A DNA stretch of 64,000 bases. It comes from Alphaproteobacteria bacterium (lineage in GTDB: Bacteria; Pseudomonadota; Alphaproteobacteria; UBA828). This document shows positions 14,029-57,601 of the stretch, piece by piece. Location: contig CAXXVO010000004.1 of the NCBI GenBank assembly GCA_963422645.2, positions 32,001 through 96,000 of the forward strand. Direction: 5' to 3'. The position numbers and the translations under genes are program-made. The notes under the pieces were generated by a model, which saw nothing but the letters and a program-made list of their open reading frames with translations, searched no databases and had not been told where the DNA came from. The first letter of the stretch is position 1. Every line of letters starts with the position of its first letter.

Positions 14029-14934
14029 TCATGCAGCCATATTGAGGTTCTCGCTGGCGGCATAGTGATTTGCTTCGGCCTCAGCGGGCGGGATGTTACC
14101 GATGGGGCCGAGCAGGCGTTGATTATTGAACCAGTCCACCCATTCGAGGGTGGCGTATTCGACGGCCTCGAACGATCTCCACGGGCCGCGCCGGTGGATC
14201 ACCTCGGCCTTGTAGAGGCCGTTGATCGTTTCGGCCAACGCGTTGTCGTAGCTGTCGCCGACACTGCCGACCGATGGATCGATCCCGGCTTCGGCCAGAC
14301 GCTCGGAGTATTTGATCGACAGGTATTGGACGCCGCGGTCGCTGTGATGCACGAGGCCCGATCCCCTGGCGGGCTTCCGGGCGTGTATCGCCTGTTCCAG
14401 GGCATCCAGAACGAAGCTTGCATGAGCCGTGCGGCTCACCCGCCATCCGACGATCCGGCGTGCGAAGGCATCGATCACGAAGGCCACATAGACGAACCCG
14501 GCCCAGGTCGCGACATAGGTGAAGTCCGCCACCCACAGACGATTGGGCCCGGGCGCCTGGAACTGCCGGTTCACCTTGTCGAGCGGGCACGCCGCTCCCT
14601 TGTCGCTGACCGTGGTCTTCACCGGCTTGCCCCTGATCGCCCCGGCAAGGCCGAGATCGCGCATCAGCCGCTCGACGGTGCAGCGGGCAACGTCCAGGCC
14701 TTCGCGCCGTAGCTGGCGCCAGATCTTGCGGGCGCCATAGACCGAGTAGTTCGTCTCGAAGACGCGCTCGATCTCCGCCATCAGTACCAGATCACGCCGG
14801 GCACGATCCGGCAGCAGCGACGGATCGCGCTGTCTGCCGGCATGAAGCCGGTACGTGGACGGGGCGATCGGCAGAACCTTGCAGATCGGCTCGACCCCAT
14901 AGGTATCGCGATGCTCGTCGATGAAGGCGATCAT
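14029..14934 (-). CDS. IS3 OrfB DDE integrase core
   Basis: [35 protein letters not shown]. Confidence 0.95.
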
Positions 14935-15180
14935 CGCTTGAGTGGGCGGTCGAGCTCCGCCTGGGCAAAATAGGCACTGGCTTTGCGCAGAATCTCGTTC
15001 GCCTGGCGCAGCTCGCGAACCTCGCGTTCCAGCGCCCTGACCCGCGCACGATCGTCGCTGGTCATGCCCGACCTGGCGCCGCTGTCTTGTTCAGCCCGAC
15101 GGACCCACCGCCGCAGCGTCTCGGTCGTGCAGCCGAACTTCGCCGCGATCGAACACATCGCCGCCCATTGCGAGCCATGC
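14931..15180 (-). pseudogene. IS3 OrfA, 5'-truncated
   Basis: [41 protein letters not shown]. Confidence 0.9.
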
Positions 15181-19534: not shown

Positions 19535-21423
19535 GTAACTGCCCAGGTCGTCTGATTTGTCATTTTGGGCCAGTGGATTGAGGCGTTTCTCGTTCGGAGT
19601 TGGTGGAAAGGGCTTGACGGGAATTTCGGGAAATGACTCAACAACGACATGAGCAATCCCGAGTCGCCGCGCGGCCCTTCGACGGGAGCAGCGCCCGAAA
19701 CGCCCGCGCAGAAGATCGCCCGCCTGGAGGAGGAGAACGCCCGGCTTCGGGAGGAAAATGCCTGGCTTCGGCAGCAGAACGCGCGGCTGGAAGAGCAAGT
19801 CGCGCGTCTCGTCGAGCGCATCGAGGAGTTGGAGCGCCGTCTCGGCCTCAACAGCGGCAACAGCGGCAAGCCGCCTTCGAGCGATGGGCTGAGGAAGCCG
19901 AATTCGAAGCGGCGAACCCGAAGCCTGCGCGGCAAATCGGGCCGCAAGCCCGGTGGCCAGCCCGGCCACAAGGGCAAGACGCTGCGCCGCGCCGATCACC
20001 CGGATCGGGTGAAGGATCACGTCCCGGCTTCCTGCAAGGGATGCGGTTCGCCGCTTTCGGACGCGGCCAGGGCGGGAACGCCCGTCGCCCGCCAGGTGTT
20101 CGATCTGCCCGAGCCGAGCCCCCTGGAGGTGACCGAGCACCGGGCGCATGCCAAGTGCTGCGGGCATTGCGGGACGGTGACCCGGGCGGCGTTCCCCGAC
20201 GGGGTGTCGGCGCCGGTGCAGTACGGCCCGCGCATTGCCGGGGTGGCGGTCTACCTTCAGCACGCTCACTTCCTGCCGGAGGATCGGCTGTCGCAGGTGA
20301 TGGCCGAGCTCTTCGGCGCGCCGGTGACGGCTGCGACGTTGGCGACGATGAGCGAGAGGGCGGCCGAGCGGCTTGCGGGACGCGGCCTTGCACATACAGG
20401 ACCTGGCGGCGGGCACGGCGCGGGTGAAACACATGGACGAGACCGGCTTGCGGATCGGCGGTCAGACGCAGTGGCTTCATGTGATCTGCACGCCGCTGCT
20501 GGCGGCGTACCGGGTCAGCGGCAAGCGCGGCGCCCTGCTCTCGGGTGTCTCCGGCATCGTCGTGCACGATCACTGGAAGCCGTACTTCGCGATGGAAGGG
20601 GTGGAGCACGGCCTGTGCAACGCCCATCACCTGCGGGAGTTGCAGGCGCTGGTGGACATCGAAGGGGAGGCTTGGGCCCGGCGGATGCAGCAGCTCCTGC
20701 GCCGAGCCAATCGCGCCGCCCGCATCGCGCTGGACAAGGATATCGCCGTTCCGGCGAGGCTTGTGGCGCTGATCGAGCGCCGATACGACGAGATCATCGC
20801 CGATGCGCTGGCCTTTCACGAGAGCCAACCACCGTTCTCGCCTGGCAAGAGGAAGAAGCGCCGGAAGCGAAGGATCGGTCACAATCTGGCCTTGAGGCTG
20901 CGCGACCACAAATGCGCGGTGCTCCGGTTCCTGATCGACCTCGAGGTCGGGTTCACGAACAACGAGGCCGAGCGCGACCTTCGGATGATGAAGCTGCGCC
21001 AGAAGATCTCCGGGGGCTTCCGGTCCGCGCAGGGGGCCGAGAACTTCGCCATCCTGCGCAGCGTCATCACCACCGCCAGAAAGCAGGGCTGGAATATCAT
21101 CGAAGCCCTGACCAGCCCATCGGATCGGCTCATCGCCACCGTCAAGTGCGCGTAAGCTCACCTGGCACGGGTTCTCCAACAGCGGAGCCATTCTCATAAA
21201 CGATCATGGTCGACGCCGTGCTGGACCACCCCATAGAATGAAAATCGGTGCCCGTCGCGCGGGCGGACTTCGGGCCACATCGGGGTAGCTTACCGGTCGC
21301 AGTCCGCAAGAGGGGCATCGTGAGCTGTGAAACCCGGCGACCCCAGAGGAGCACACGGGCGTCGCGTGGGTAGCGTTGTGCCGAATCCCAGAGAATTTTC
21401 ACAGCAAGAACCTGGGCAGTTAC
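19535..21423 (+). mobile_element. IS66-family single-ORF (ISBst12-like) element
   Basis: TIR GTAACTGCCCAGGT/ACCTGGGCAGTTAC; 8-bp TSD GAAAATAG/AAAAATAG (7/8). Confidence 0.92.
19649..21155 (+). pseudogene. IS66 transposase, frameshifted near 20380
   Basis: NSGKPPSSD, Zn fingers, HMDETG, CNAHHLREL, TNNEAERDLR split across two frames. Confidence 0.88.
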
Positions 21424-32447: not shown

Positions 32448-33985
32448 CAGTGTCGCGCTGGCACGAGGACCTCGCTGCCCACGACGAGGCCTTCGCGTGC
32501 CTGCAGGACCTTTTCACCCCACAATCCTTCGCAATGACCGCCGTCAAAGCCATTCGGGAATGGGGCCAGAGGTTGCTGCGCCTGAGCGCGGCCCTGGTCA
32601 AGGAGAACGACGCGCTGGAGCGGGAGAACGCCCGCTTGCGCGAGCGGATCGCCGAACTCGAGCGCAGCGCCGCGCTCGACAGCACCACCAGCTCCAAGCC
32701 GCCGGCCAGCGACGGTCTGAAGAAGAAGAGCGGTGACCGGGAGAAGCGCACCCGGAGCCAGCGCGGCAAGTCCGACAGGCCCAGTGGCGGCCAGCCGGGC
32801 CACAAGGGAACTACCCTGGAGCGGACCGCGACGCCCGACCATGTCGTCGATCATGATCCGTCCGCCTGTGAGGGCTGCGGCGCGCCGCTGTCGGACGCTG
32901 ACCGTCACGGAGCCCCCGTCTGCCGGCAGGTCTTCGATGTGCCCGAGCCGCAGCCCCTCGAGGTCACCGAACATCGCGGCCATCGTTGCCTCTGCGCTGC
33001 CTGCGGCACCGTGACGACAGCCGTCTTCCCGAACGGCGTGAGCGCACCGGTCCAATACGGGCCGCGCATCACCGCGTGGGTGACCTACCTGCTGCACGCT
33101 CAGTTCATTCCCGAGAAGCGGGTCGCCGAGGTCATGAGCGACCTCTTCGCGGTCAAGCTCTCAACAGCCACCATCGTCGCCATGGGAAGGCGCACCGCCC
33201 GGCGCTTCGAGGGCTTCCTCGATCGCCTCGCGGAGATCATCCGCACCGCAGCCCCAGTCAAACACCTCGACGAGACCGGCATCCGCATCGCCGCCCGGAC
33301 CCATTGGCTCCATGTGCTGTGCACCCCGTTGCTCACCATCCTGCGCGTCGCCACCGGGCGCAGCCACATCGACGAGAAGCTCAACGGCATCGTCATCCAT
33401 GACGACTACGCCACCTACTTCGCTCTCGAGGGCGTGCGCCACGGGGCCTGCAACGCCCATCACCTGCGCGAGCTCCAAGCCCTCATCGAGATCGAGAAGG
33501 AAGACTGGGCAACGAGCACGCACCGGCTCCTCATCCGTGCCAACAGAGCCGCCCGCTTCGCCCACAAGAACGACCGCGACGTGCCCGCCTCACTGGTGGC
33601 CCGCATCTCGCGAGCCTGGGACCGCATCCTCGAACGTGCCATCGCCTCTCACGAAGAAATGCCACCGCTCCAGACCGGAAAGCGCGGACGACAAAAGCGC
33701 CGCATCGGTCACAACCTCGCCCTCCGACTCCAGAAGTACAAGGAGGGGTGCCTGCGCTTCCTCACCGATCCGCGAACCCCCTTCTCCAACAACGAGGCCG
33801 AGCGCGACCTCCGAATGGGCAAGCTGCGCCAGAAAATCTCAGGCGGCTTCCGCTCGATACAAGGCGCCCGCGACTTCGCAAACCTGCGATCCGTCATCGC
33901 CACCGCTCGAAAACAGCGCTGGAATGTCCTCGAAACCCTGGCGCACCCCGATCCAATCCAGCTGATCCCCGTATTGCGCTTCTGA
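32444..33985 (+). CDS. IS66 transposase (intact)
   Basis: SSKPPASD, HLDETG, CNAHHLREL, SNNEAERDLR; GTG start overlaps the MTase stop (GTGA). Confidence 0.92.
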   Translation: MTVSRWHEDLAAHDEAFACLQDLFTPQSFAMTAVKAIREWGQRLLRLSAALVKENDALERENARLRERIAELERSAALDSTTSSKPPASDGLKKKSGDREKRTRSQRGKSDRPSGGQPGHKGTTLERTATPDHVVDHDPSACEGCGAPLSDADRHGAPVCRQVFDVPEPQPLEVTEHRGHRCLCAACGTVTTAVFPNGVSAPVQYGPRITAWVTYLLHAQFIPEKRVAEVMSDLFAVKLSTATIVAMGRRTARRFEGFLDRLAEIIRTAAPVKHLDETGIRIAARTHWLHVLCTPLLTILRVATGRSHIDEKLNGIVIHDDYATYFALEGVRHGACNAHHLRELQALIEIEKEDWATSTHRLLIRANRAARFAHKNDRDVPASLVARISRAWDRILERAIASHEEMPPLQTGKRGRQKRRIGHNLALRLQKYKEGCLRFLTDPRTPFSNNEAERDLRMGKLRQKISGGFRSIQGARDFANLRSVIATARKQRWNVLETLAHPDPIQLIPVLRF

Positions 33986-44176: not shown

Positions 44177-45829
44177 TCAGCCGGGGTCGGTCGCGGGCTC
44201 GAAGTTCCAGGGCAGCAGTTCGTGGATCCGCGATTGCGGATGCCCCGCGGCGATCTTCTCCAGCGTGCTCTTGAGCCAGGCGTAGGGCTCGACGCCGTTC
44301 ATCTTGCAGGTCTCGATCAGCGAGGCGACGCGGCCCCACGCGGCAGCGCCTTCGTCATGGCCCGCGAACAGCGCGTTCTTCGCGGTCAGCTTCACCGGGC
44401 GAATGCGGTTCTCGACGAAGTTCGTGTCGATCTCGACGCGGCCGTCGTACAGGAACGCCAGCAGCCCGTCCCACTGGTTGGCGATGTAGGTCAGCTTCTC
44501 GCCGAGGCGCGAGCGCGGCGAGATCCGCGAGCGCTGCTCGTCGAGCCACACGCCGAAGCCGTTCACGAGCGGCGCCGATTCCGTCCAGCGGATTGCCTGG
44601 CGCGTCGCCGCCGGCTCGCCCCGGATCTTCTCCTCGATCGCATAGAGCCGCGCGATCCGTTGCAGACCGGCCTTCGCGATCGCGGACCCGCTTGAGTCGA
44701 ACACCTCCTTCAGCCCGCGCCTCGCGTGCGCCCAACAGGCGGTGAGCGTCAGCGCCCCGTCCGGCCGGTCCGACCGGCGCAGCCGGTTGTACCCGGAGTA
44801 GCCGTCGATCTGCAGCGTCCCCGAAAAACCCTCGAGAAGCTTCTCGCCATGCTTGCCGCCGCGGCCGGGCGCATAGGAATAGACGACGCCCGGCGGATCC
44901 GCGCCCGACCACGGCCGCTCGTCGCGCACCATCGTCCACATGTAGCCCGTCTTCGTCCTGCCCCGGCCCGGGTCGAGAACCCGAACCGTGGTCTCGTCCA
45001 TGCCCAGCTTCGCCGATGTCTTCAACGCCCTCGCCAGGCAGTCGACCACCGGCCGCAGGTGGAACGAGGCCCGGCCCACCCACGAGGCCAGCGTCGAACG
45101 GTGCAGCTCGACCCCGGAGCGCGCGTAAATCTGAGACTGCCGGTAGAGGGGAAGGTGGTCGCCGTATTTCGAGATCAGCACATGCGCCAGCAGGCCCTCG
45201 GTCGGAAGACCGCCCTCGATCAGCGACGCCGGAGCCGCAGCCTGCACCACCCCGCCGCCCTTGCACCTGTTGCAGGCATAGCGCGGGCGCACCGTCTCGA
45301 TCACCAGGAACCGCGCCGGCACGATGTCGAGCCGTTCGCTGCGGTCCTCGCCGATCTTCGCCATCTCGCCGCAACCGCAAGGGCAGAGCGTGCTCGCCGG
45401 CTCGATCACCTCCACCCGGCGCTCAAGCCGGGCCGGGAACCGTGCCCCGGGGCGCGCCGCCCGCCGCCGGCGGCGGGCCTCGGCCTCCCCGCCCTGTTCG
45501 TCCGCCGCCGGCTCGCCGCCGGCTTCCGCGACCGCCGTCCCAAGATCGTCGAACGACAGCTGCCGCTCGTCCTCGCCCAGCTTCTCCGACTTCCTGCCGA
45601 ACAGCGCCTTGCGAAGCTCGTCATTGAGATGCTCGAGGCGGCGGACCTGCTCCGCGATCTCCGCGTTCTCGGCCTCCAGCCGTGCCGCTAAGGCCTCCGC
45701 CGTCTCCCGTGCCGCCTCCGCCGCCCGGCGTGCGGCCCGTTCCCGCTCCAGAGCCGCGAGCGCCGCCGAAACCACCGCCGGCGGCGGCGAGCCAGCGGTG
45801 GCAGGGGCGATGGGCGTCGCGCTCGGCAT
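44177..45829 (-). CDS. IS66 transposase TnpC
   Basis: LFGRKSEK, KYGDHLPLYRQ, MDETT, CWAHARR, DTNFVENRIR. Confidence 0.95.
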   Translation of the reverse strand: MPSATPIAPATAGSPPPAVVSAALAALERERAARRAAEAARETAEALAARLEAENAEIAEQVRRLEHLNDELRKALFGRKSEKLGEDERQLSFDDLGTAVAEAGGEPAADEQGGEAEARRRRRAARPGARFPARLERRVEVIEPASTLCPCGCGEMAKIGEDRSERLDIVPARFLVIETVRPRYACNRCKGGGVVQAAAPASLIEGGLPTEGLLAHVLISKYGDHLPLYRQSQIYARSGVELHRSTLASWVGRASFHLRPVVDCLARALKTSAKLGMDETTVRVLDPGRGRTKTGYMWTMVRDERPWSGADPPGVVYSYAPGRGGKHGEKLLEGFSGTLQIDGYSGYNRLRRSDRPDGALTLTACWAHARRGLKEVFDSSGSAIAKAGLQRIARLYAIEEKIRGEPAATRQAIRWTESAPLVNGFGVWLDEQRSRISPRSRLGEKLTYIANQWDGLLAFLYDGRVEIDTNFVENRIRPVKLTAKNALFAGHDEGAAAWGRVASLIETCKMNGVEPYAWLKSTLEKIAAGHPQSRIHELLPWNFEPATDPG

Positions 45830-45886
45830 GACCCCGATATGGGGCGAATCGCCGCCCCGGCGCCACCGAATAATCCCGGCCGCGCA

Positions 45887-46237
45887 TCATTCCGCCGCCA
45901 GCGGGCGGCGAACCGGCCGTGCCCGCACGAGGCGCCAGTCCAGACCCTCGAACAACGCCTCGAACTGGCCCTTGCTGAGCCGTATCATCCCGTCCTCGAT
46001 CCCGGGCCAGGCGAAGCGGCCCTGCTCCAGGCGCTTGTAGATCAGAACCAACCCGGTCCCGTCCCACGCCAGCATCTTCAGCCGGTCGCCCCGCTTCGAG
46101 CGGAAGATCACGATCACCCCGGACCAGATGTCCAGGCCGAGCTCGCCCGCCGCCGTCGCCGCAAGCGCGTCGTGGCCGCGGCGAAAATCCACCGGGCGCG
46201 TCGCCACCACGATGCGGACCGACGGATCGGGAAGCAT
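45887..46237 (-). CDS. IS66 accessory protein TnpB
   Basis: PVDFRRGHDAL, DRLKMLAWDGTG, YKRLEQGRFAWP. Confidence 0.93.
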   Translation of the reverse strand: MLPDPSVRIVVATRPVDFRRGHDALAATAAGELGLDIWSGVIVIFRSKRGDRLKMLAWDGTGLVLIYKRLEQGRFAWPGIEDGMIRLSKGQFEALFEGLDWRLVRARPVRRPLAAE

Positions 46238-46485
46238 CACCAGGCCCGCCCAAGCCCCGAGGCGACGGCCACGATCCGCTCCGCCGGGCTGTCCCCGGGA
46301 AGGCGCACCACAACGCCGCATGCCTCGATCGTCACCGCCCGCTCCGACGCCGCATCCTCGACCACAACCGGGACAAAACAGTCATGGTCCCCGCGGTTCT
46401 GAGCCACCCCGTGGCATGAAACAGGAGCGGTTCGGCTGACGTTTTCCTTGCGCTTGCACCCATTTGCCGTGTCAGGATGGGTATT

Positions 46486-46668
46486 GGCGGAGGTGGGGAC
46501 GTGTGAGCGTCGTTATATCGGTGACGTAGTTCCCGATGACAAAACTGCTTCCGGCGGCCGGCTCCGCACCCCGTATTGTACCCGGCCCGTGGCCGTGGAC
46601 GCGCGGCAAATTGCACCGCACCCGCTCGTCGGATGCGTGTTCTTCCGACCGCTGTCCCCGCCTCCACC
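46486..46668 (+). ncRNA. Putative IS110 bridge RNA core
   Basis: 15-bp closing stem (46486-46500 with 46654-46668) encloses target-matching GACAAAA and donor-matching CGGCAAA. Confidence 0.65.
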
Positions 46669-46730
46669 GTGGCGATGCCACGGCGTGATCGTACGCCGCC
46701 GTGGCGAGAGCGCAAATGAGGAGGAAGGCG

Positions 46731-47981
46731 ATGAAGACGGAAGGCTTGCACGTCGTCCGGCCGCGCGCGGCGGGTCTGGACGTGCACAAGATGGAGATCA
46801 CCGCGACGGTTCGCCTCTGTGAGGGCGAGGGTGAGCCGGTGGTGGAGACGCGCTGCTTCGGCACGCTGCCGAGCGGTCTGGAGGAGATGGTCGCGTGGCT
46901 GACCGGTCACGGCGTCGAGGCTGCGGTGATGGAAGGGACCGGGGTCTACTGGCAGGCGCCCTTCGCGGCCCTGGAGGCGGCCGGGCTCGAGGCGATCCTG
47001 GTGCATGCGCGTCAGGTGAAGCAGTTGAAGGGGCGCAAGACCGACGTGGCGGACAGCGTGTGGCTGGCCTGCGTGTGCCAGTTCGGGCTCTGCACGCCTT
47101 CCCACGTTCCGCCTGAGCCGTTCCGGGAGCTGCGCGCACTGAGCCGCCAGCGCCGCGTCCTGGTCAGGCAGCGCTCCGCCGTGCGCAACCGCGTGCAGAA
47201 GATCATCGACCGCGCCGGTGCGCGCATCGGCGGCATCCTCTCCGACGTCTTCGGCGTCAACGGCCGGAAGATCCTCGACGGCCTGGCGCAGGGGACGGCG
47301 CGCGAGGTCATCCTCGCCTCGCTCACCAGCCACGTTGCGAACAAGCTGGAGGGGCTCGGCGAGGCGCTCACCCTGAGCCTGGGCGACAACGACCGCTTCA
47401 TGCTCAACGACCTGCTGGAGGAGCATGACGCGCTTGAGGCGCGCATCGCGTCCTACACCAGGAAGATCGACGGGCAGATGACACCGTGGGAGGAGCAGCT
47501 CCGTCTGCTGACCACCATCCCCGGCATCGACCGCACCGCCGCCTCGACCATCCTCATCGAGATCGGCCCCGACATCGGCGTGTTCGCCTCCAAGGAGCAC
47601 TTCGCCGCCTGGGCCGGGCTCTGCCCCGGCAACAACGAGAGCGGGGGCAAGCGCCGCAACGCACGCACCCGCATGGGCTCCAAGACCCTGCGCGCCTGCC
47701 TCGTCGAGTGTGCCCACGGCGCGGCCCGAACCAAGGGGTGCCAGTTCGAGGCTCATCACCGCGCCCTCGCCGCCCGGCGCGGCTACAAGCGCGCCATCGT
47801 CGCCGGCGCTCACAAGATGCTGCGCATCATCTATGTGGTGCTCAAGACCGGCAGGCCCTACTACGACCGCACGGCCGACTACGACGCTCTGATGGTCAAG
47901 CGCAACGCTCCTCGGTGGATCCGCATGCTCCGCCGCTACGGCTACATCGAGCCCGTAGGCGCGGAACTCAAGGCCGCCTGA
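46731..47981 (+). CDS. IS110-family recombinase
   Basis: GLDVHK, MEGTGVYW, KTDVADS, TIPGI, NNESGGK; GAGGAGG RBS before ATG 46731. Confidence 0.95.
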   Translation: MKTEGLHVVRPRAAGLDVHKMEITATVRLCEGEGEPVVETRCFGTLPSGLEEMVAWLTGHGVEAAVMEGTGVYWQAPFAALEAAGLEAILVHARQVKQLKGRKTDVADSVWLACVCQFGLCTPSHVPPEPFRELRALSRQRRVLVRQRSAVRNRVQKIIDRAGARIGGILSDVFGVNGRKILDGLAQGTAREVILASLTSHVANKLEGLGEALTLSLGDNDRFMLNDLLEEHDALEARIASYTRKIDGQMTPWEEQLRLLTTIPGIDRTAASTILIEIGPDIGVFASKEHFAAWAGLCPGNNESGGKRRNARTRMGSKTLRACLVECAHGAARTKGCQFEAHHRALAARRGYKRAIVAGAHKMLRIIYVVLKTGRPYYDRTADYDALMVKRNAPRWIRMLRRYGYIEPVGAELKAA

Positions 47982-48591
47982 GCGGCCCGCATCTCGTCAG
48001 CCGGCTACGCGGGACCGCTTCGGACCACATCGGGGAAGTCCACCGCTCGTCTCCGCCGCGCCGACCCTGGCGGTCTCAGCCAACGCCGTGACCTCGGGGT
48101 TGGAGCGTCACCGCGCGTCCCTCGCCAGAATCTGTTTCACGGCAAAGGCGGCGCGGCGCCCGCCGTCACCGCCGGGAGAAACCCCTCCCGCGCCCGACGC
48201 CGCCACCGGCTGAGGCTCCACGTGGCGATGCCGTGGCGGGCCGCAACCCCAACCACCGTCGCACCCGGCTCATGGCTCTCCGCGACAATCCGCGCCTGCT
48301 CGGCGCTCGACCAACGACGCCGAGTGACGCGGCGCCCAGAGGCCCGGGCCTCCGGCGCCCCAGCCCCGTCAACCGCACAACCGCCGCCGCCCGCCGTCAA
48401 GCCAAAATCGGTCATCCCGATCCCTCCTCCAAGCCTCGTTGCCAAGGCGTAAAGTCAGACCGAAAAGAAGACCCGGCGAAAGTATGGGGCGCGCTAACCG
48501 CTTACGGTATTCCCGCGCCTTTAGAGGTGTGCAATAGGTTGCCGGCCGCAACGCGGGCGCAGGAAGCGATTCGGCAAGTAGGAGGAGTTCA

Positions 48592-51330
48592 ATGCCTGAC
48601 AAGCGCGCAGGTCGGCGCAGCCGTCGCCGGTCCGGGGCTCCGGCCCCGGTGTTCCGGGGCTGGCTCTCGACCGACGAGGAGGAGATCAAGCGGCGGCAAT
48701 GGCGCGGCCGAACGGAGATCTCGGAAGTCCGCGCCGTCGACGAGGACAACTCGCCCTTCTGCGATTACACGGTGGCCTCCTCCAGCGGGACTTCATACAG
48801 GGTGGAAATCCGCAGCATCGGGGAACGCATCAACACCTGCGGCTGCCGGGACCATCAGACCAACCGGCTCGGCACGTGCAAGCATATCGAAGGCGTGCTG
48901 CGACGTTTGCGGCGTGTAGGTTCGAACAAGTCCAGCGGCCGCATCGAGATATTTCTGGACGAGCGTGACGATCGGACCCTGCGCCTCTCGGTGCCGGACA
49001 GCGTAGCGGGAGAAAACCTCGCGCTGGCGGCTGACGTCGAGAGGCTGTTCGGTGAACTGCAGAAAGGCTCCGGGGACGCCCTTGCGGGATTGCACCGCTT
49101 GGCAGGGGAAGACGCGCGCTCCATGCGCGTTTCGCACCTCCTGGAGAAGTGGGCCGCCGCCCTCCGGACGGAGAGCGAGCACCGACTTGAGCGCGCCCGC
49201 TTCGAGGAGGATCTCAAGGCGGGGCGCCGCTCGATGGACATCCTCAAGCTCCCGCTTCTGCCCTACCAGACCGAGGGGGCTCTGCACCTGGCCTTCGGCG
49301 GGCGTGCGCTGCTGGCGGACGACATGGGCCTCGGCAAGACCGTGCAGGCCATCGCCGCCTGCGCCCTGCTTCGCGAGCTGCGCGGGATCGAACGGGTCCT
49401 CGTCGTCTCGCCCGCCTCGCTCAAGGCGGAGTGGCAGGAGCAGATCGCCCGCTTTTCCGACCTGTCGGCGACCGCGGTTTACGGCAACGTCCCTGCTCGT
49501 CGTGCCGCCTATGCCGAGGGCTCGTTCTTCACTCTGTGCAACTACGAGCAGGTGGTGGCGGACGGCTGCGACATGATCGATGCCGTCGCGCCCGACGTTG
49601 CGATCCTCGACGAGGCGCAGCGCATCAAGAACTGGCAGACCAAGACCGCGAATGCGGTCAAGAAGATGGAGAGCCGGTACGCCTTCGTGCTCACCGGGAC
49701 GCCGATCGAGAACCGGATCGACGAGGTCTATTCGATCGTCCTGTTTCTCGATCCGGAGCTTCTGGGCCCGCTCTTTCGCTTCAACCGGGAGTACTACGTT
49801 CTGGACGACAGGGGCCGTCCTACGGGCTTCAGGAACCTGGAGGGGCTCTCCGACCGGATCTCCAATGTCATGCTCCGCCGCCGCAAGGACGATGTGGAGA
49901 CGCAGCTTCCCGCGCGCACGAGCAAGACCTTCTTCGTTCCGATGACCGAGGCGCAGACCGAGGTCTACGAGGACTACGAGTATCTGGCGAGGAGGCTGGC
50001 CTCGATCGCCGCGCGGCGGCCGCTGACGGCCGAAGAGTTCCAGATGCTGCAAAAGTTTCTCGCCTGCATGCGCATGGTCTGCGACACGCTCCACATCCTG
50101 GGTGCGGAGCAGGACATCTGCCCCAAGATGGAGGAGATCGAGAAGCTGGTGCCCGACATCCTGGACGATCCAGAGTGCAAGATCATCGTCTTCTCCGAGT
50201 GGGTGCGCATGCTGGAGCTGGTTCGCGCGTTTGCGGTCGAGGTCGGCATTGAGTTTGCCTGGCACACGGGCAGCGTCCCGCAGCCCCGACGGCGCGACGA
50301 GATTCGCAGGTTCCGCGAGGACCCGGCCTGCCGCCTGTTCCTGTCCTCGGACTCCGGCAGCGTCGGGCTCAATCTCCAGGTCGCCGATACCGTGATCAAC
50401 ATGGACCAGCCCTGGAACCCCGCCAAGCTGGATCAGCGGATCGCGCGGGCCTGGCGCAAGCACCAGCAGCGCACCGTGAGGGTGTTCAACCTGGTGAGCG
50501 AGGGGACGATCGAGCACAGGATGCTGGGGCTGCTGGACGCAAAGAGGACCTTGGCCGAGGGTGTGCTCGACCGGCGCGGCGACCTTGCCGATATCCCACT
50601 GCCCACGAGCCGGGCGGCGTTCATGGAACGCCTGAACGCCGTCCTGGGCACGGACGAGGCGGAGGCGCCGTCGACGGCCGCAGCTTCGATCTCTCCGCTG
50701 GAAGCGCTGCGGGATCGCCTGATCGCCGACCATGGCGCTGCCTTTCAGCGATTGTTCGGGCACGAGAGCGGGGCGGCGGCACTGGCGGTGATCGACCTGG
50801 CGCCCGAGCGGATGAGCGATGAAGAGGAGCGTCTGGCGGGAGTATCGGAGTTGGCGGTCACGGTAATCGATCCCGCGACCCACGACTCGATGCTGCGGCT
50901 GGCGAAGTCGGGTCTGATTACCTTGCCGACCGACACGATGAGCGCGATCTATCCCATGCCGGGGGAACGAGAGGGCAGGGACGTGAGCGCGGGGCTGCTT
51001 CGGGCCCGGTCGCTGGCAGAACGTGCCGATCACAAGCTCAAGGCGGCGCGGCTGCTGGTCGGCGGGGGCTTCGCCGAGGAAGCGCGCGCGCCGGCCGTCG
51101 ACGCGATCTGCCTGACCACCGGCTGCCTGGCAGCCGTGGCGGCGGAAGCGGAGCCCGAAGGCGCCGACGAGGCGGCCGCCTTTCTGGCCGAGCGGGACCC
51201 GGCAAGCGATCTCGGTGGCGCGACGCTCGACGCGGTGAGAGTCCTCTCCGGCGATGCCGGGGAGACGGATTCTGTCGAAACTGCTACCGCATTCCTGGAC
51301 CAGGTGTCGAAGCGGATTGAGGAGATGTGA
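48592..51330 (+). CDS. SWIM Zn-finger + SNF2 helicase with an extended C-terminus
   Basis: CGCRD..LGTCKHI (SWIM), LADDMGLGKT, LDEAQRIKN, LTGTP, WNPAKLDQRIARAWR; AGGAGG RBS. Confidence 0.92.
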   Translation: MPDKRAGRRSRRRSGAPAPVFRGWLSTDEEEIKRRQWRGRTEISEVRAVDEDNSPFCDYTVASSSGTSYRVEIRSIGERINTCGCRDHQTNRLGTCKHIEGVLRRLRRVGSNKSSGRIEIFLDERDDRTLRLSVPDSVAGENLALAADVERLFGELQKGSGDALAGLHRLAGEDARSMRVSHLLEKWAAALRTESEHRLERARFEEDLKAGRRSMDILKLPLLPYQTEGALHLAFGGRALLADDMGLGKTVQAIAACALLRELRGIERVLVVSPASLKAEWQEQIARFSDLSATAVYGNVPARRAAYAEGSFFTLCNYEQVVADGCDMIDAVAPDVAILDEAQRIKNWQTKTANAVKKMESRYAFVLTGTPIENRIDEVYSIVLFLDPELLGPLFRFNREYYVLDDRGRPTGFRNLEGLSDRISNVMLRRRKDDVETQLPARTSKTFFVPMTEAQTEVYEDYEYLARRLASIAARRPLTAEEFQMLQKFLACMRMVCDTLHILGAEQDICPKMEEIEKLVPDILDDPECKIIVFSEWVRMLELVRAFAVEVGIEFAWHTGSVPQPRRRDEIRRFREDPACRLFLSSDSGSVGLNLQVADTVINMDQPWNPAKLDQRIARAWRKHQQRTVRVFNLVSEGTIEHRMLGLLDAKRTLAEGVLDRRGDLADIPLPTSRAAFMERLNAVLGTDEAEAPSTAAASISPLEALRDRLIADHGAAFQRLFGHESGAAALAVIDLAPERMSDEEERLAGVSELAVTVIDPATHDSMLRLAKSGLITLPTDTMSAIYPMPGEREGRDVSAGLLRARSLAERADHKLKAARLLVGGGFAEEARAPAVDAICLTTGCLAAVAAEAEPEGADEAAAFLAERDPASDLGGATLDAVRVLSGDAGETDSVETATAFLDQVSKRIEEM

Positions 51331-55349: not shown

Positions 55350-55632
55350 TGACCTGCCCCCGTCGACTGGTCCGGTTTGAATGTTAGTGCATTGACGGTT
55401 TCTCGGCCAAGCTGGATGGCCGGCGGAGCGTAGCGGAGCCGGGCGGCCAGCTTGGCGTGACGATCGTTTCCGGGGCCGGCGGCCGGTATCCCAGGCTGCT
55501 GTGTGGGCGTATGGCGTTGTAATGGCGCCGCCAGGATTCGATGAGAACCTGGGCTTCCTTGAGGGTATAGAAGATCTCCCCGTTCAGGAGCTCGTCGCGC
55601 AGCCGCGCGTTGAAGCTCTCGATATAGCCGTT
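55350..55632 (-). mobile_element. IS3-family (IS407-like) right-end relic
   Basis: [36 protein letters not shown]; end TGACCTGCCCCCG. Confidence 0.88.
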
Positions 55633-55684
55633 ATCGTCGATTGACGAATGCAAACGCCGGCGTTCCGTCGTTACATCCGCATGA

Positions 55685-57455
55685 TTTGCCGTGAAACAGA
55701 TTCTGGCGAGGGACGCGCGGTGACGCTCCAACCCCGAGGTCACGGCGTTGGCTGAGACCGCCAGGGTCGGCGCGGCGGAGACGAGCGGTGGACTTCCCCG
55801 ATGTGGTCCGAAGCGGTCCCGCGTAGCCGGCTGACGAGATGCGGGCCGCTCAGGCGGCCTTGAGTTCCGCGCCTACGGGCTCGATGTAGCCGTAGCGGCG
55901 GAGCATGCGGATCCACCGAGGAGCGTTGCGCTTGACCATCAGAGCGTCGTAGTCGGCCGTGCGGTCGTAGTAGGGCCTGCCGGTCTTGAGCACCACATAG
56001 ATGATGCGCAGCATCTTGTGAGCGCCGGCGACGATGGCGCGCTTGTAGCCGCGCCGGGCGGCGAGGGCGCGGTGATGAGCCTCGAACTGGCACCCCTTGG
56101 TTCGGGCCGCGCCGTGGGCACACTCGACGAGGCAGGCGCGCAGGGTCTTGGAGCCCATGCGGGTGCGTGCGTTGCGGCGCTTGCCCCCGCTCTCGTTGTT
56201 GCCGGGGCAGAGCCCGGCCCAGGCGGCGAAGTGCTCCTTGGAGGCGAACACGCCGATGTCGGGGCCGATCTCGATGAGGATGGTCGAGGCGGCGGTGCGG
56301 TCGATGCCGGGGATGGTGGTCAGCAGACGGAGCTGCTCCTCCCACGGTGTCATCTGCCCGTCGATCTTCCTGGTGTAGGACGCGATGCGCGCCTCAAGCG
56401 CGTCATGCTCCTCCAGCAGGTCGTTGAGCATGAAGCGGTCGTTGTCGCCCAGGCTCAGGGTGAGCGCCTCGCCGAGCCCCTCCAGCTTGTTCGCAACGTG
56501 GCTGGTGAGCGAGGCGAGGATGACCTCGCGCGCCGTCCCCTGCGCCAGGCCGTCGAGGATCTTCCGGCCGTTGACGCCGAAGACGTCGGAGAGGATGCCG
56601 CCGATGCGCGCACCGGCGCGGTCGATGATCTTCTGCACGCGGTTGCGCACGGCGGAGCGCTGCCTGACCAGGACGCGGCGCTGGCGGCTCAGTGCGCGCA
56701 GCTCCCGGAACGGCTCAGGCGGAACGTGGGAAGGCGTGCAGAGCCCGAACTGGCACACGCAGGCCAGCCACACGCTGTCCGCCACGTCGGTCTTGCGCCC
56801 CTTCAACTGCTTCACCTGACGCGCATGCACCAGGATCGCCTCGAGCCCGGCCGCCTCCAGGGCCGCGAAGGGCGCCTGCCAGTAGACCCCGGTCCCTTCC
56901 ATCACCGCAGCCTCGACGCCGTGACCGGTCAGCCACGCGACCATCTCCTCCAGACCGCTCGGCAGCGTGCCGAAGCAGCGCGTCTCCACCACCGGCTCAC
57001 CCTCGCCCTCACAGAGGCGAACCGTCGCGGTGATCTCCATCTTGTGCACGTCCAGACCCGCCGCGCGCGGCCGGACGACGTGCAAGCCTTCCGTCTTCAT
57101 CGCCTTCCTCCTCATTTGCGCTCTCGCCACGGCGGCGTACGATCACGCCGTGGCATCGCCACGGTGGAGGCGGGGACAGCGGTCGGAAGAACACGCATCC
57201 GACGAGCGGGTGCGGTGCAATTTGCCGCGCGTCCACGGCCACGGGCCGGGTACAATACGGGGTGCGGAGCCGGCCGCCGGAAGCAGTTTTGTCATCGGGA
57301 ACTACGTCACCGATATAACGACGCTCACACGTCCCCACCTCCGCCAATACCCATCCTGACACGGCAAATGGGTGCAAGCGCAAGGAAAACGTCAGCCGAA
57401 CCGCTCCTGTTTCATGCCACGGGGTGGCTCAGAACCGCGGGGACCATGACTGTTT
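55685..57455 (-). mobile_element. IS110-family element, copy 2 (inverted)
   Basis: Same length and identical ORF translations as 46376-48146. Confidence 0.93.
55850..57100 (-). CDS. IS110-family recombinase (identical to 46731-47981)
   Basis: Identical translation. Confidence 0.95.
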   Translation of the reverse strand: MKTEGLHVVRPRAAGLDVHKMEITATVRLCEGEGEPVVETRCFGTLPSGLEEMVAWLTGHGVEAAVMEGTGVYWQAPFAALEAAGLEAILVHARQVKQLKGRKTDVADSVWLACVCQFGLCTPSHVPPEPFRELRALSRQRRVLVRQRSAVRNRVQKIIDRAGARIGGILSDVFGVNGRKILDGLAQGTAREVILASLTSHVANKLEGLGEALTLSLGDNDRFMLNDLLEEHDALEARIASYTRKIDGQMTPWEEQLRLLTTIPGIDRTAASTILIEIGPDIGVFASKEHFAAWAGLCPGNNESGGKRRNARTRMGSKTLRACLVECAHGAARTKGCQFEAHHRALAARRGYKRAIVAGAHKMLRIIYVVLKTGRPYYDRTADYDALMVKRNAPRWIRMLRRYGYIEPVGAELKAA

Positions 57456-57601
57456 TGTTGAGGTAACCCACCCCTTCCATCCATGGCTGGGTTGTCAATC
57501 GGCTTTCAATACTGACCCCCGATTGGAGTGGGCCCCTGGGGTCGGACAGGTGGACTGAAATGATTTGACCGGTGCGCCGGGCATTCGAAGGATCGACGCC
57601 C

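What the first reader, a model, noticed from the sequence alone, without database searches (positions are those of the whole stretch)
46379..46730. IS110 leader contains motifs matching both its targets and its own donor junction (bridge-RNA signature)
Seen: the two copies define the element. The reconstituted targets are cgggACAAAA|ggcgg and ctcaACAAAA|tcatg, and both restore reading frames. The donor circle junction is caCGGC-AAA-cagtc. In the 350-bp leader, a 15-bp stem (46486-46500/46654-46668) encloses GACAAAA (46538-46544; target left + core). It also encloses CGGCAAA (46604-46610; donor left + core), followed by a hairpin and TGTT (46638-46641; complement of donor AACA). Known: IS621-type IS110 elements use bispecific bridge RNAs with target- and donor-binding loops. 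Inference: this is a bridge recombinase with an A-rich core rather than CT and with little right-target constraint.
Basis: partly seen in the sequence, partly recalled or inferred. Interest (0 to 1): 0.8.

Follow-up and report, generated by a model that had tools for sequence, protein, structure and literature searches.

The report
IS110 element with bridge RNA
This is an ordinary-in-kind but very active IS110-family jumping gene whose upstream leader encodes a bridge RNA, with one loop spelling its insertion site and another spelling its own end.

Summary
The two motifs are real and are guides. The element (46378-48143 plus an AA core on each side) is an IS110-family insertion sequence. It has 48 copies at 37 loci in its own genome. 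A covariance model built from 24 homologous leaders gives a supported fold. In that fold GACAAAAC (46538-46545) and CGGCAAA (46604-46610) are unpaired.

Across 46 loop/left-flank pairs from 25 different loops, the four bases before AAAC equal the four flank bases in 46, 44, 41 and 30 pairs. The donor loop tracks the element's right end in the same way, in 14, 14, 14 and 13 of 14 pairs.

The core is AA, and each left guide has only four programmable bases. The 97%-identical relative with the same left end lacks it, and nothing covaries with it.

A right-target guide probably lies at 46510-18, 5' of the left-target guide. That order is the reverse of IS621. In this element it does not match the observed flanks.

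The left junction keeps a full target match, which explains six tandem arrays. Bridge RNAs of IS110 elements are well known, so this is a new member of a known kind. RNA expression and activity were not tested.

The parts
46376..46377 (+). Core AA at the left junction (left target ...GACA | AA | ACAGTC... of the element)
   Evidence: Flanks of 48 copies and an unoccupied paralogous site GAACA-AA-GTGCATG.
46378..48143 (+). Body of the IS110-family element, copy 1 (right-donor end ACAGTC... to left-donor end ...CACGGC). The unit with one core is 1768 bp.
   Evidence: 100% identical to copy 2 and to 46 further full copies in the genome. The tandem period is 1768 or 1769 bp.
48144..48145 (+). Core AA at the right junction
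   Evidence: AA follows CACGGC in 32 of 33 distinct sites.
46378..46730 (+). Left end (non-coding leader, 353 nt). It is longer than the 162-nt right end, as in the IS110 group.
   Evidence: The IS110-group layout is described in PMC11208160 section 12.
46489..46665 (+). Bridge-RNA domain closed by long stem P1 (46489-46499 with 46655-46665)
   Evidence: RNAalifold. Pair counts on 24 and on 46 distinct sequences: 92.7% and 93.0% of cells paired, against 36-51% with slid partners. Covariance model R1 scores 206 bits here.
46505..46550 (+). Target-binding loop, closed by stem P2 (46505-46509 with 46546-46550) and containing hairpin H1 (46519-46524 with 46531-46535)
   Evidence: P2 pair 30:78 is GC, UA or AU in 14, 8 and 2 of 24 sequences. 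H1 pair 48:61 is AU or GC in 14 and 10. Coordinates.
46538..46545 (+). Left-target guide GACAAAAC: four programmable bases (GACA), core AA, then AC
   Evidence: The loop equals the left flank at positions -1 to -4 in 46, 44, 41 and 30 of 46 pairs, and at -5 in only 8 of 46. Mutual information equals the full entropy at 46541 (34 of 34 identical).
46510..46518 (+). Variable strand X (UCGUUAUAU), 5' of H1. It is the probable right-target guide of the family but is not matched to this element's own right flanks.
   Evidence: Complementarity of X to the right flank summed over 22 X variants is 91, against 73.1 +/- 4.0 when partners are permuted; 1 of 6676 permutations reaches it. The top-MI columns for right-flank positions +1 to +4 all lie at 46511-46515.
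46552..46654 (+). Donor-binding domain, closed by stem P3 (46552-46561 with 46645-46654) and containing hairpins H2 (46577-46586 with 46592-46601) and H3 (46613-46618 with 46630-46636)
   Evidence: All 5 pairs of the outer part of P3 show changes on both sides in the 46-sequence alignment. H3 is poorly aligned in distant relatives (73-76% of cells paired).
46604..46610 (+). Left-donor guide CGGCAAA: four bases matching the element's right end (CGGC), core AA, then A
   Evidence: The loop equals the right end at -1 to -4 in 14, 14, 14 and 13 of 14 pairs, and at -7 and -8 in 0 of 14. CGGC, CAGC and CAAC co-occur in loop and end. Position 46605 is identical in 29 of 29.
46637..46644 (+). No role is assigned.
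   Evidence: Not conserved in L031/L032, which have the same left end. No covariation with the left end.
46731..47981 (+). Recombinase gene (416 aa), preceded by GAGGAGG
   Evidence: Pfam PF01548 (E 1.8e-23) and PF02371 (E 4.5e-21). NCBIfam NF033542 'IS110 family RNA-guided transposase', 270.3 bits against a cut-off of 140. In the IS621 alignment E68, D105, D108 and S304 face identical residues in the motifs IEATG, KTDTVD and ESG.
47982..48143 (+). Right end (162 nt), ending ...CTGTTTCACGGC
55688..57453 (-). Copy 2 of the element. Its bridge-RNA domain hit is 57155-57353, left-target guide 57286-57293, left-donor guide 57221-57227.

Best explanation
Anatomy. The 1768-bp unit is an IS110-group insertion sequence. 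Its left end is read as a structured bridge RNA of about 180 nt (46489-46665). Within it, a target loop carries GACA-AA-AC. This has the sense of the top strand of the left flank plus core, so it would pair with the bottom strand. A donor loop carries CGGC-AA-A, which has the sense of the element's right end plus core.

Proposed mechanism. By analogy with IS621, the DEDD/Ser recombinase bound to this RNA would bring the joined ends of the element (CACGGC-AA-ACAGTC) together with a target NACA-AA-A and exchange strands at the AA core. The result is an insertion with no duplication other than the shared core.

Consequences of short guides. Each left guide has only four programmable bases, so the target is about 7 bp long. 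This fits the 33 unrelated insertion sites. The left junction (GACA-AA-AC) still matches the whole target loop after insertion, so a new copy can land next to a resident one. The right junction (CGGCA-AA) is a near-match. These two routes would give tandem junctions with three A and four A respectively.

Shown versus inferred. Shown: the anatomy, the fold covariation, and the covariation of loops with flanks and ends. Inferred: that the RNA is made, binds the protein and guides recombination.
For: - Protein family and catalytic residues.
- Copy number: 47 full copies at 100% identity plus one copy with a ~20-nt deletion just 3' of the bridge-RNA domain, at 37 loci.
- Target logo from 33 distinct sites: A at -3 in 29, C at -2 in 33, A at -1 in 32, G at -4 in 17, AA core in 32, A at +1 in 24.
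- Fold: 92.7% of cells paired on 24 sequences, and 93.0% on 46 distinct sequences, against 36-51% with slid partners. 12 of 44 pairs and 25 of 44 pairs show changes on both sides. 0 of 500 shuffles reach the covariation score.
- Target loop against left flank: 46, 44, 41 and 30 of 46 identical at -1 to -4. At family level, 87.2 of 100 matches against 29.2 +/- 3.8 for permuted partners, with a maximum of 43 in 1281 permutations.
- Donor loop against right end: 14, 14, 14 and 13 of 14.
- Model R1 hits only the two leaders in the window, and hits 69 places in 73 sources, all on the recombinase strand.
- Tandem arrays: 6 arrays holding 17 copies, with 11 junctions, 6 carrying AAA and 5 carrying AAAA.
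- Known mechanism: PMC11208160 and PMC11208158 (passages read).
Against: - No RNA evidence for this organism. Only contigs of metatranscriptomes from relatives could be laid, and these cannot show that an RNA exists or where it ends.
- Thermodynamic folding alone is uninformative. The leader's MFE z-score is -0.11. The covariation structure scores -52 kcal/mol against an MFE of -84.8.
- No right-donor guide was found.
- The putative right-target guide does not match this element's own flanks.
- No sigma-70-like promoter was found across a tandem (circle-like) junction.
- Variation at the donor guide is small: three variants of the four bases.
- Homologous sequences are related, so shuffle statistics overstate independence.
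Confidence: 0.85

Rival explanations
1. The leader is a structured 5' UTR or DNA-level recombinase-binding region that controls transposase expression or end recognition. On this view the loop motifs are not guides. Their likeness to flank and end comes from protein-read DNA sites or from shared ancestry.
For: No RNA or binding data exist. The region ends about 65 nt before the start codon, next to the ribosome-binding site. The donor motif varies little, with 3 variants. An inverted copy of the right end, CATTTGCCGTG at 46461-46471, also sits in the leader.
Against: The left flank is not part of the element, yet its last four bases equal the loop in 25 different loops. Ancestry or a protein site inside the element cannot produce that. 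Compensatory changes in four helices point to a folded single strand.
Confidence: 0.06
2. Only the target loop acts as a guide (a seekRNA-like minimal system), and the ends of the element are read by the protein. On this view CGGCAAA is conserved for another reason.
For: The donor loop has low variation. No right-donor guide was found. The preprint 10.1101/2025.10.25.684509 reports that an RNA holding the target loop alone supports one transfer step in another IS110 element (passages read).
Against: CGGC, CAGC and CAAC change together in the loop and at the right end in 14 of 14, 14 of 14 and 14 of 14 pairs at -1 to -3, and in 29 of 29 at 46605.
Confidence: 0.07
3. The motif matches are chance 7-mers.
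For: Short A-rich words do occur elsewhere. GACAAAA is found 4 times in the window against 2.54 expected, and CGGCAAA 17 times against 9.42 expected.
Against: By my arithmetic, about 0.007 and 0.026 occurrences are expected in the leader on one strand. Covariation across homologues rules chance out.
Confidence: 0.01

Closest known systems
IS621 bridge recombinase and bridge RNA (E. coli; PMC11208160, PMC11208158)
   Same: - DEDD RuvC-like domain plus Tnp domain with a catalytic Ser.
- RNA encoded in the left end, with the target loop 5' of the donor loop.
- Left guides have the sense of the top strand and include the core.
- A core dinucleotide is shared by both junctions and there is no other duplication.
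   Different: - The protein is 416 aa; the solved IS621 chain is 328 residues. Similarity is weak (E 6e-16).
- The core is AA, not CT.
- Left guides have 4 programmable bases. IS621 has a nine-base left-target guide that includes the core.
- One long stem closes both loops.
- The donor domain is a multi-branch loop.
- The probable right-target guide lies 5' of the left-target guide, whereas IS621 runs stem, LTG, stem loop, RTG.
- No right-donor guide or handshake guide could be recognised.
- No junction promoter was seen.
seekRNAs of IS1111-type elements (ISEc11, ISPa11, ISKpn4; PMC11187229)
   Same: The order of the two target matches is the same: the complement of the top strand lies 5' of the match to the bottom strand (passages read).
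   Different: Their RNA is encoded downstream of the transposase gene, and they have longer subterminal inverted repeats. Here the RNA is upstream, and the only repeat is CTGTTT/AAACAG around the donor.
Subgroup of long IS110 transposases (395-455 aa) named in PMC11187229
   Same: Protein length of 416 aa and an upstream non-coding region.
   Different: No named ISfinder member was recovered. The best 120 homologues listed carry no IS name. Membership of this subgroup therefore rests on length alone.

Membership tests
IS110 family (bridge recombinase elements) | Recombinase with a DEDD RuvC-like domain and a Tnp domain carrying the catalytic Ser | tested here: met
   PF01548 and PF02371. NF033542 scores 270.3 bits against a cut-off of 140. 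The alignment to IS621 chain 8wt6_A places E68, D105, D108 and S304 opposite identical residues in the motifs IEATG, KTDTVD and ESG. I read these as IS621's E60, D102, D105 and S241 (residues named) by motif, not by counted numbering. D17 lies in the invariant GLDVHK of 11 relatives but is outside the pairwise alignment.
IS110 family (bridge recombinase elements) | Site-specific insertion with a short core shared by donor and target and no other target duplication | tested here: met
   AA is found at both junctions in 32 of 33 distinct sites. An unoccupied paralogous site GAACA-AA-GTGCATG fits exactly. Two other paralogous sites have AG at the core.
IS110 group (as opposed to IS1111 group) | Long left end that holds the RNA, a short right end, and only short subterminal repeats | tested here: met
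   Left end 353 nt, right end 162 nt. The model hits lie upstream of the gene in all full loci.
Bridge RNA | Structured RNA with two loops, the target loop 5' of the donor loop | tested here: met
   Covariation-supported helices P1, P2, H1, P3 and H2. The architecture differs from IS621 in having a closing stem and a multi-branch donor domain.
Bridge RNA | Left-target guide matches left flank plus core and covaries with it | tested here: met
   46, 44, 41 and 30 of 46 at -1 to -4. Permutation control 87.2 against 29.2 +/- 3.8.
Bridge RNA | Left-donor guide matches the element's right end plus core and covaries with it | tested here: met
   14, 14, 14 and 13 of 14 and 29 of 29 at 46605. Only three variants exist.
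Bridge RNA | Right-target guide complementary to the top strand of core plus right flank | tested here: inconclusive
   At family level, strand X is more complementary to its own right flanks than to others' (91 against 73.1 +/- 4.0; 1 of 6676). Runs of six occur in three X variants (loci L057, L093, L039). For this element the best run is 4 among 8 flanks, and it does not fit the preference for A then T seen in 33 sites.
Bridge RNA | Right-donor guide complementary to the top strand of core plus left end, with handshake guides | tested here: not met
   No column of the model covaries with the three variable bases after AAAC, and none is complementary to left-flank positions -1 or -2. The bases nearest the core (AA-AC) are invariant and so cannot be tested by covariation.
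Bridge RNA | Promoter rebuilt across the joined ends of the circle | tested here: not met
   A consensus scan across a tandem junction found 0 sites. The scan covers sigma-70 consensus only, and the host has 67% G+C (composition).
Bridge RNA | RNA is expressed, binds the recombinase and is needed for recombination | not testable with these tools
   Only assembled contigs of metatranscriptomes from relatives were available.
IS621-like clade | CT core and the order stem, LTG, stem loop, RTG | tested here: not met
   The core is AA. The left-target guide abuts the 3' arm of P2, and the only RT-related strand is 5' of H1.

The most novel reading that the evidence does not exclude
A left-end-encoded bridge RNA of the long-transposase IS110 subgroup with these features:
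- Its target loop has the IS1111-type guide order: right-target guide, hairpin, left-target guide.
- Its left guides have only four programmable bases and run on past an AA core into the element's own first bases.
- As a result, insertion regenerates the target at the left junction, and the element piles up in head-to-tail arrays.

If this layout is real and undescribed, it is a natural minimal-specificity, permuted form of the bridge RNA. It would link the IS110-type and IS1111-type designs.
Probability: 0.25. Interest if true: 0.55.

Novelty: new member of a known kind. Interest (0 to 1): 0.35.

Why it matters
The finding shows that a bridge-RNA signature can be read from raw sequence and then confirmed by covariation alone.

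The element is a useful natural extreme. Its guides have four programmable bases around an AA core, which gives a target of about 7 bp. That goes with a burst to 48 identical copies at 33 unrelated sites and with tandem arrays. It illustrates the trade-off between guide length and promiscuity. It is also a counter-example to the suggestion in preprint 10.64898/2026.08.14.744561 (passages read) that IS110 insertion does not regenerate a target.

For engineering it is a poor tool, but it is informative about which contacts are dispensable.

The kind itself is established. NCBI already names the protein family 'RNA-guided transposase'. A 2026 preprint catalogues 32,190 bridge RNAs in 86 models, with 12 to 40 programmable bases (10.64898/2026.10.21.760802, section 2.4 read).

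Tried and rejected
- Rfam. No family matched the leader at gathering score, nor at E up to 10 beyond chance-level hits.
- Single-sequence folding. The z-score is -0.11. Unpaired probabilities of the two guides are 0.54 and 0.59, against a mean of 0.35. This is too weak to use.
- TGTT as right-donor guide. Rejected.
- The variable island UAUU at 46574-46577 as right-donor or right-target guide. It matches the left end only in the L057 and L058 types. Its last base tracks one base of the left end in 20 of 23, but that column also pairs with an invariant G. Rejected as unproven.
- The base after AAA in the donor loop as a reader of the second right-flank base. It fits this element (U against T in 14 of 33) but none of the other families looked at by eye. 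Left unexplained.
- The leader segment CATTTGCCGTG (46461-46471), complementary to the right end plus core. It is perfect only in this element. Close relatives carry an extra C, and it overlaps a small hairpin. Treated as unexplained.
- Class-wide search with model R1. It found 0 of 150 other genomes, one per family. This means not found in those searched; it does not show absence.
- Metagenome scan. It gave only 15 loci.
- Five related genomes. They added almost no new copies.
- RNA runs. Five metatranscriptome runs held small shares, and four were laid. All are contigs of relatives at 90-99% likeness. One contig joins the right end (48146) to the leader with 163 unlike letters between, which could be a circle, a tandem junction or DNA carry-over. 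Parts without cover prove nothing.
- Junction promoter scan. 0 sites.
- Supplementary files of the papers were closed. Extended Data and supplementary figures of PMC11208160 and of the 2026 preprint may already show this RNA layout, and I could not see them.
- Literature searches. None of the listed titles or read passages describes an AA-core IS110 element with reversed guide order in the left end. This is not proof that none is in print.

Full report
What is there. The window holds two inverted, 100% identical copies of a 1.77-kb element (46373-48146 and 55685-57458). Each carries one 416-aa gene (46731-47981) with Pfam DEDD_Tnp_IS110 and Transposase_20. NCBIfam NF033542, 'IS110 family RNA-guided transposase', scores 270.3 bits against a cut-off of 140. 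An alignment to the solved IS621 recombinase (8wt6, E 6.3e-16) places E68, D105, D108 and S304 opposite identical residues in the motifs that hold IS621's catalytic Glu, two Asp and Ser. The leader is 353 nt and the right end 162 nt, which is the IS110-group layout. Copy 1 sits inside an IS66-family element, between its HTH gene (48140-48445, - strand) and its TnpB gene (45890-46321, - strand).

Boundaries, core and target. The window's own genome (5.9 Mb, 23 contigs) holds 48 copies. Of these, 47 are full length at 100% identity and one has a ~20-nt deletion just 3' of the bridge-RNA domain. They lie at 37 loci, 33 of them with distinct flanks. Every copy reads left flank, AA, ACAGTC ... CACGGC, AA, right flank. 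A multi-copy paralogous sequence without the element reads GAACA-AA-GTGCATG where the occupied copy reads GAACA-AA-[element]-AA-GTGCATG. This fixes a two-base core. Two other paralogous empty sites have AG at the core. One of these insertions lacks three bases at its right junction.

The motifs. From the window shuffles, about 0.007 and 0.026 occurrences are expected in one strand of the leader; this scaling is my arithmetic.

Homologues. A scan of species-representative genomes gave 57 loci with recombinases 97% to 42% identical. A metagenome scan gave 15 more. An alignment of 24 leaders (A1) folded by RNAalifold gives the following structure:
- Stem P1: 46489-46499 with 46655-46665.
- Stem P2: 46505-09 with 46546-50. 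It encloses a variable strand X (46510-18), hairpin H1, and then AU plus GACAAAAC.
- Stem P3: 46552-61 with 46645-54. It encloses hairpin H2, then CG plus CGGCAAA, hairpin H3, and the strand holding TGTT.
On A1, 92.7% of cells pair, against 38-51% with slid partners, and 12 of 44 pairs change on both sides. A covariance model built on this structure (R1) hits 69 places in 73 sources, always on the recombinase strand. In the window it hits only the two leaders. On the resulting 46 distinct sequences, 93.0% of cells pair, against 36-51% slid. 25 of 44 pairs change on both sides, and 0 of 500 shuffles reach this. That alignment is fitted to the model and leans towards it, and the sequences are related.

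Guides. Loops and junctions were read by script from the model alignment and the loci. There are 46 distinct pairs of loop and left flank, from 25 different loops. The base before AAAC in the loop equals the base before AA-AC in the flank in 46 of 46. The next three positions agree in 44, 41 and 30 of 46. Positions -5 to -8 agree in 8, 9, 14 and 16. With one flank per loop, 87.2 of 100 positions match, against 29.2 +/- 3.8 when flanks are dealt to other loops (maximum 43 in 1281 permutations). The donor loop equals the right end at -1 to -4 in 14, 14, 14 and 13 of 14 pairs, and at -7 and -8 in 0 of 14. CGGC, CAGC and CAAC change together in loop and end. By column, mutual information equals the full entropy for left flank -1 with 46541 (34 of 34) and for right end -3 with 46605 (29 of 29). 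So each left guide has four programmable bases followed by an invariant AAA. This is the second refutation test, and it is passed.

Right guides. The strand X varies between families. Its longest complementary run to core plus right flank, summed over 22 X variants, is 91, against 73.1 +/- 4.0 for permuted partners; 1 of 6676 permutations reaches it. Runs of six occur in three X variants (loci L057, L093 and L039). The highest-MI columns for right-flank positions +1 to +4 all fall at 46511-46515. X is thus the probable right-target guide, and it lies 5' of the left-target guide. IS621 has the opposite order: stem, LTG, stem loop, RTG (PMC11208158, passages). The seekRNA paper reports top-strand complement before bottom-strand match for IS1111-type elements, and the reverse for its IS110-type example (PMC11187229, passages). 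In this element X does not fit the observed right flanks (best run 4). No right-donor guide was found. The three bases after AA-AC vary among families (AGT here) and covary with nothing. TGTT is not kept in L031/L032, which share the left end.

Tandem arrays. Six arrays hold 17 copies. Of their 11 junctions, six read CACGGC-AAA-CAGTC and five read CACGGC-AAAA-CAGTC. My inference is as follows. The left junction GACA-AA-AC still matches all eight bases of the target loop, so a second insertion there gives the AAA junction. The right junction read as GGCA-AA is a near-match, and flanks with G at -3 are used at 3 of 33 sites. Insertion there gives the AAAA junction. Homologous recombination with a circle could also give AAA junctions. 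Tandem duplication of whole IS110 modules has been reported (n = 437; preprint 10.64898/2026.08.14.744561, passages).

What is not shown. No RNA data exist for the host. Laid metatranscriptome contigs come from relatives and cannot show a transcript. No sigma-70-type promoter spans a tandem junction. Folding energy alone says nothing.

Standing. Bridge RNAs are established for IS110 elements. They were predicted in 85.7% of ISfinder IS110-group members (PMC11208160 section 12), and 32,190 have been catalogued with 12-40 programmable bases (preprint 10.64898/2026.10.21.760802 section 2.4). This element is a new member of that kind. It has a short-guide, AA-core layout and probably a permuted target loop. 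I could not check that layout against the published figures or supplements.

Noticed in passing
window 14860-14976 (-): Rfam ALIL pseudoknot (RF01497), 120.4 bits. As I recall, this is the frameshift signal of an IS3-family element.
   Followed up: no
window 44177-48445 (-): An IS66-family element (HTH gene, TnpB, and a 550-aa DDE transposase with zf-IS66 and LZ domains), split by copy 1 of the IS110 element near the end of its first gene.
   Followed up: partly
own genome, e.g. G000:C3:13649, C5:53397 (about 100 places): Another element is present in about 100 copies. Exact 25-mers from its body and from its end (ending ...GGGCAGTTAC) occur 106 and 99 times. The genome is heavily loaded with insertion sequences. 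One IS110 copy (C6:66373) sits inside one of these and one (C21:59025) sits at the end of another.
   Followed up: no
G000:C6:66373-68137: Aberrant insertion. Paralogous empty sites read GGACA-AG-GATATCGCC, but the right junction reads CACGGC-ATATCGCC. Three bases are missing and the core is not AA.
   Followed up: partly
G000:C16:23524-25256: The only non-identical copy. It has a ~20-nt deletion downstream of stem P1, in the hairpin region before the ribosome-binding site (window equivalent about 46676-46695). The bridge-RNA domain itself is intact.
   Followed up: no
window 46461-46471: CATTTGCCGTG in the leader is the reverse complement of the right end plus core plus A(TG). It is perfect only in this element; close relatives have an extra C. 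[quoted passage not shown] The right flanks of this genome favour A then T at +1 and +2. Unexplained.
   Followed up: partly
window 46538-46545 and every other copy: The DNA that encodes the left-target guide is itself a perfect target (GACA-AA-A). No copy among the 37 loci is inserted there.
   Followed up: partly
run X15, contig laid on 48017-48146 then 46542-47098: A contig from a marine metatranscriptome of a relative joins the right end to the leader, with 163 unlike letters between. It could be a circle, a tandem junction or DNA carry-over.
   Followed up: no
window 48592-51330 (+): A 912-aa open frame next to the IS66 element. By eye it looks like an SNF2-type helicase with an N-terminal zinc-finger-like CxC...H region. 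It was not searched.
   Followed up: no
window 20952-21110 and 33782-33940: A 159-nt direct repeat, 79% identical, 12.8 kb apart.
   Followed up: no
window 55600-55684 and 57456-57505 (-): Copy 2 interrupts an open frame that I translated by eye. It ends in a motif (...NGYIESFNARL) that I recall as typical of IS3-type DDE transposases. This is another case of insertion into a mobile element. The frame stays open across the virtual joint (117 aa).
   Followed up: partly
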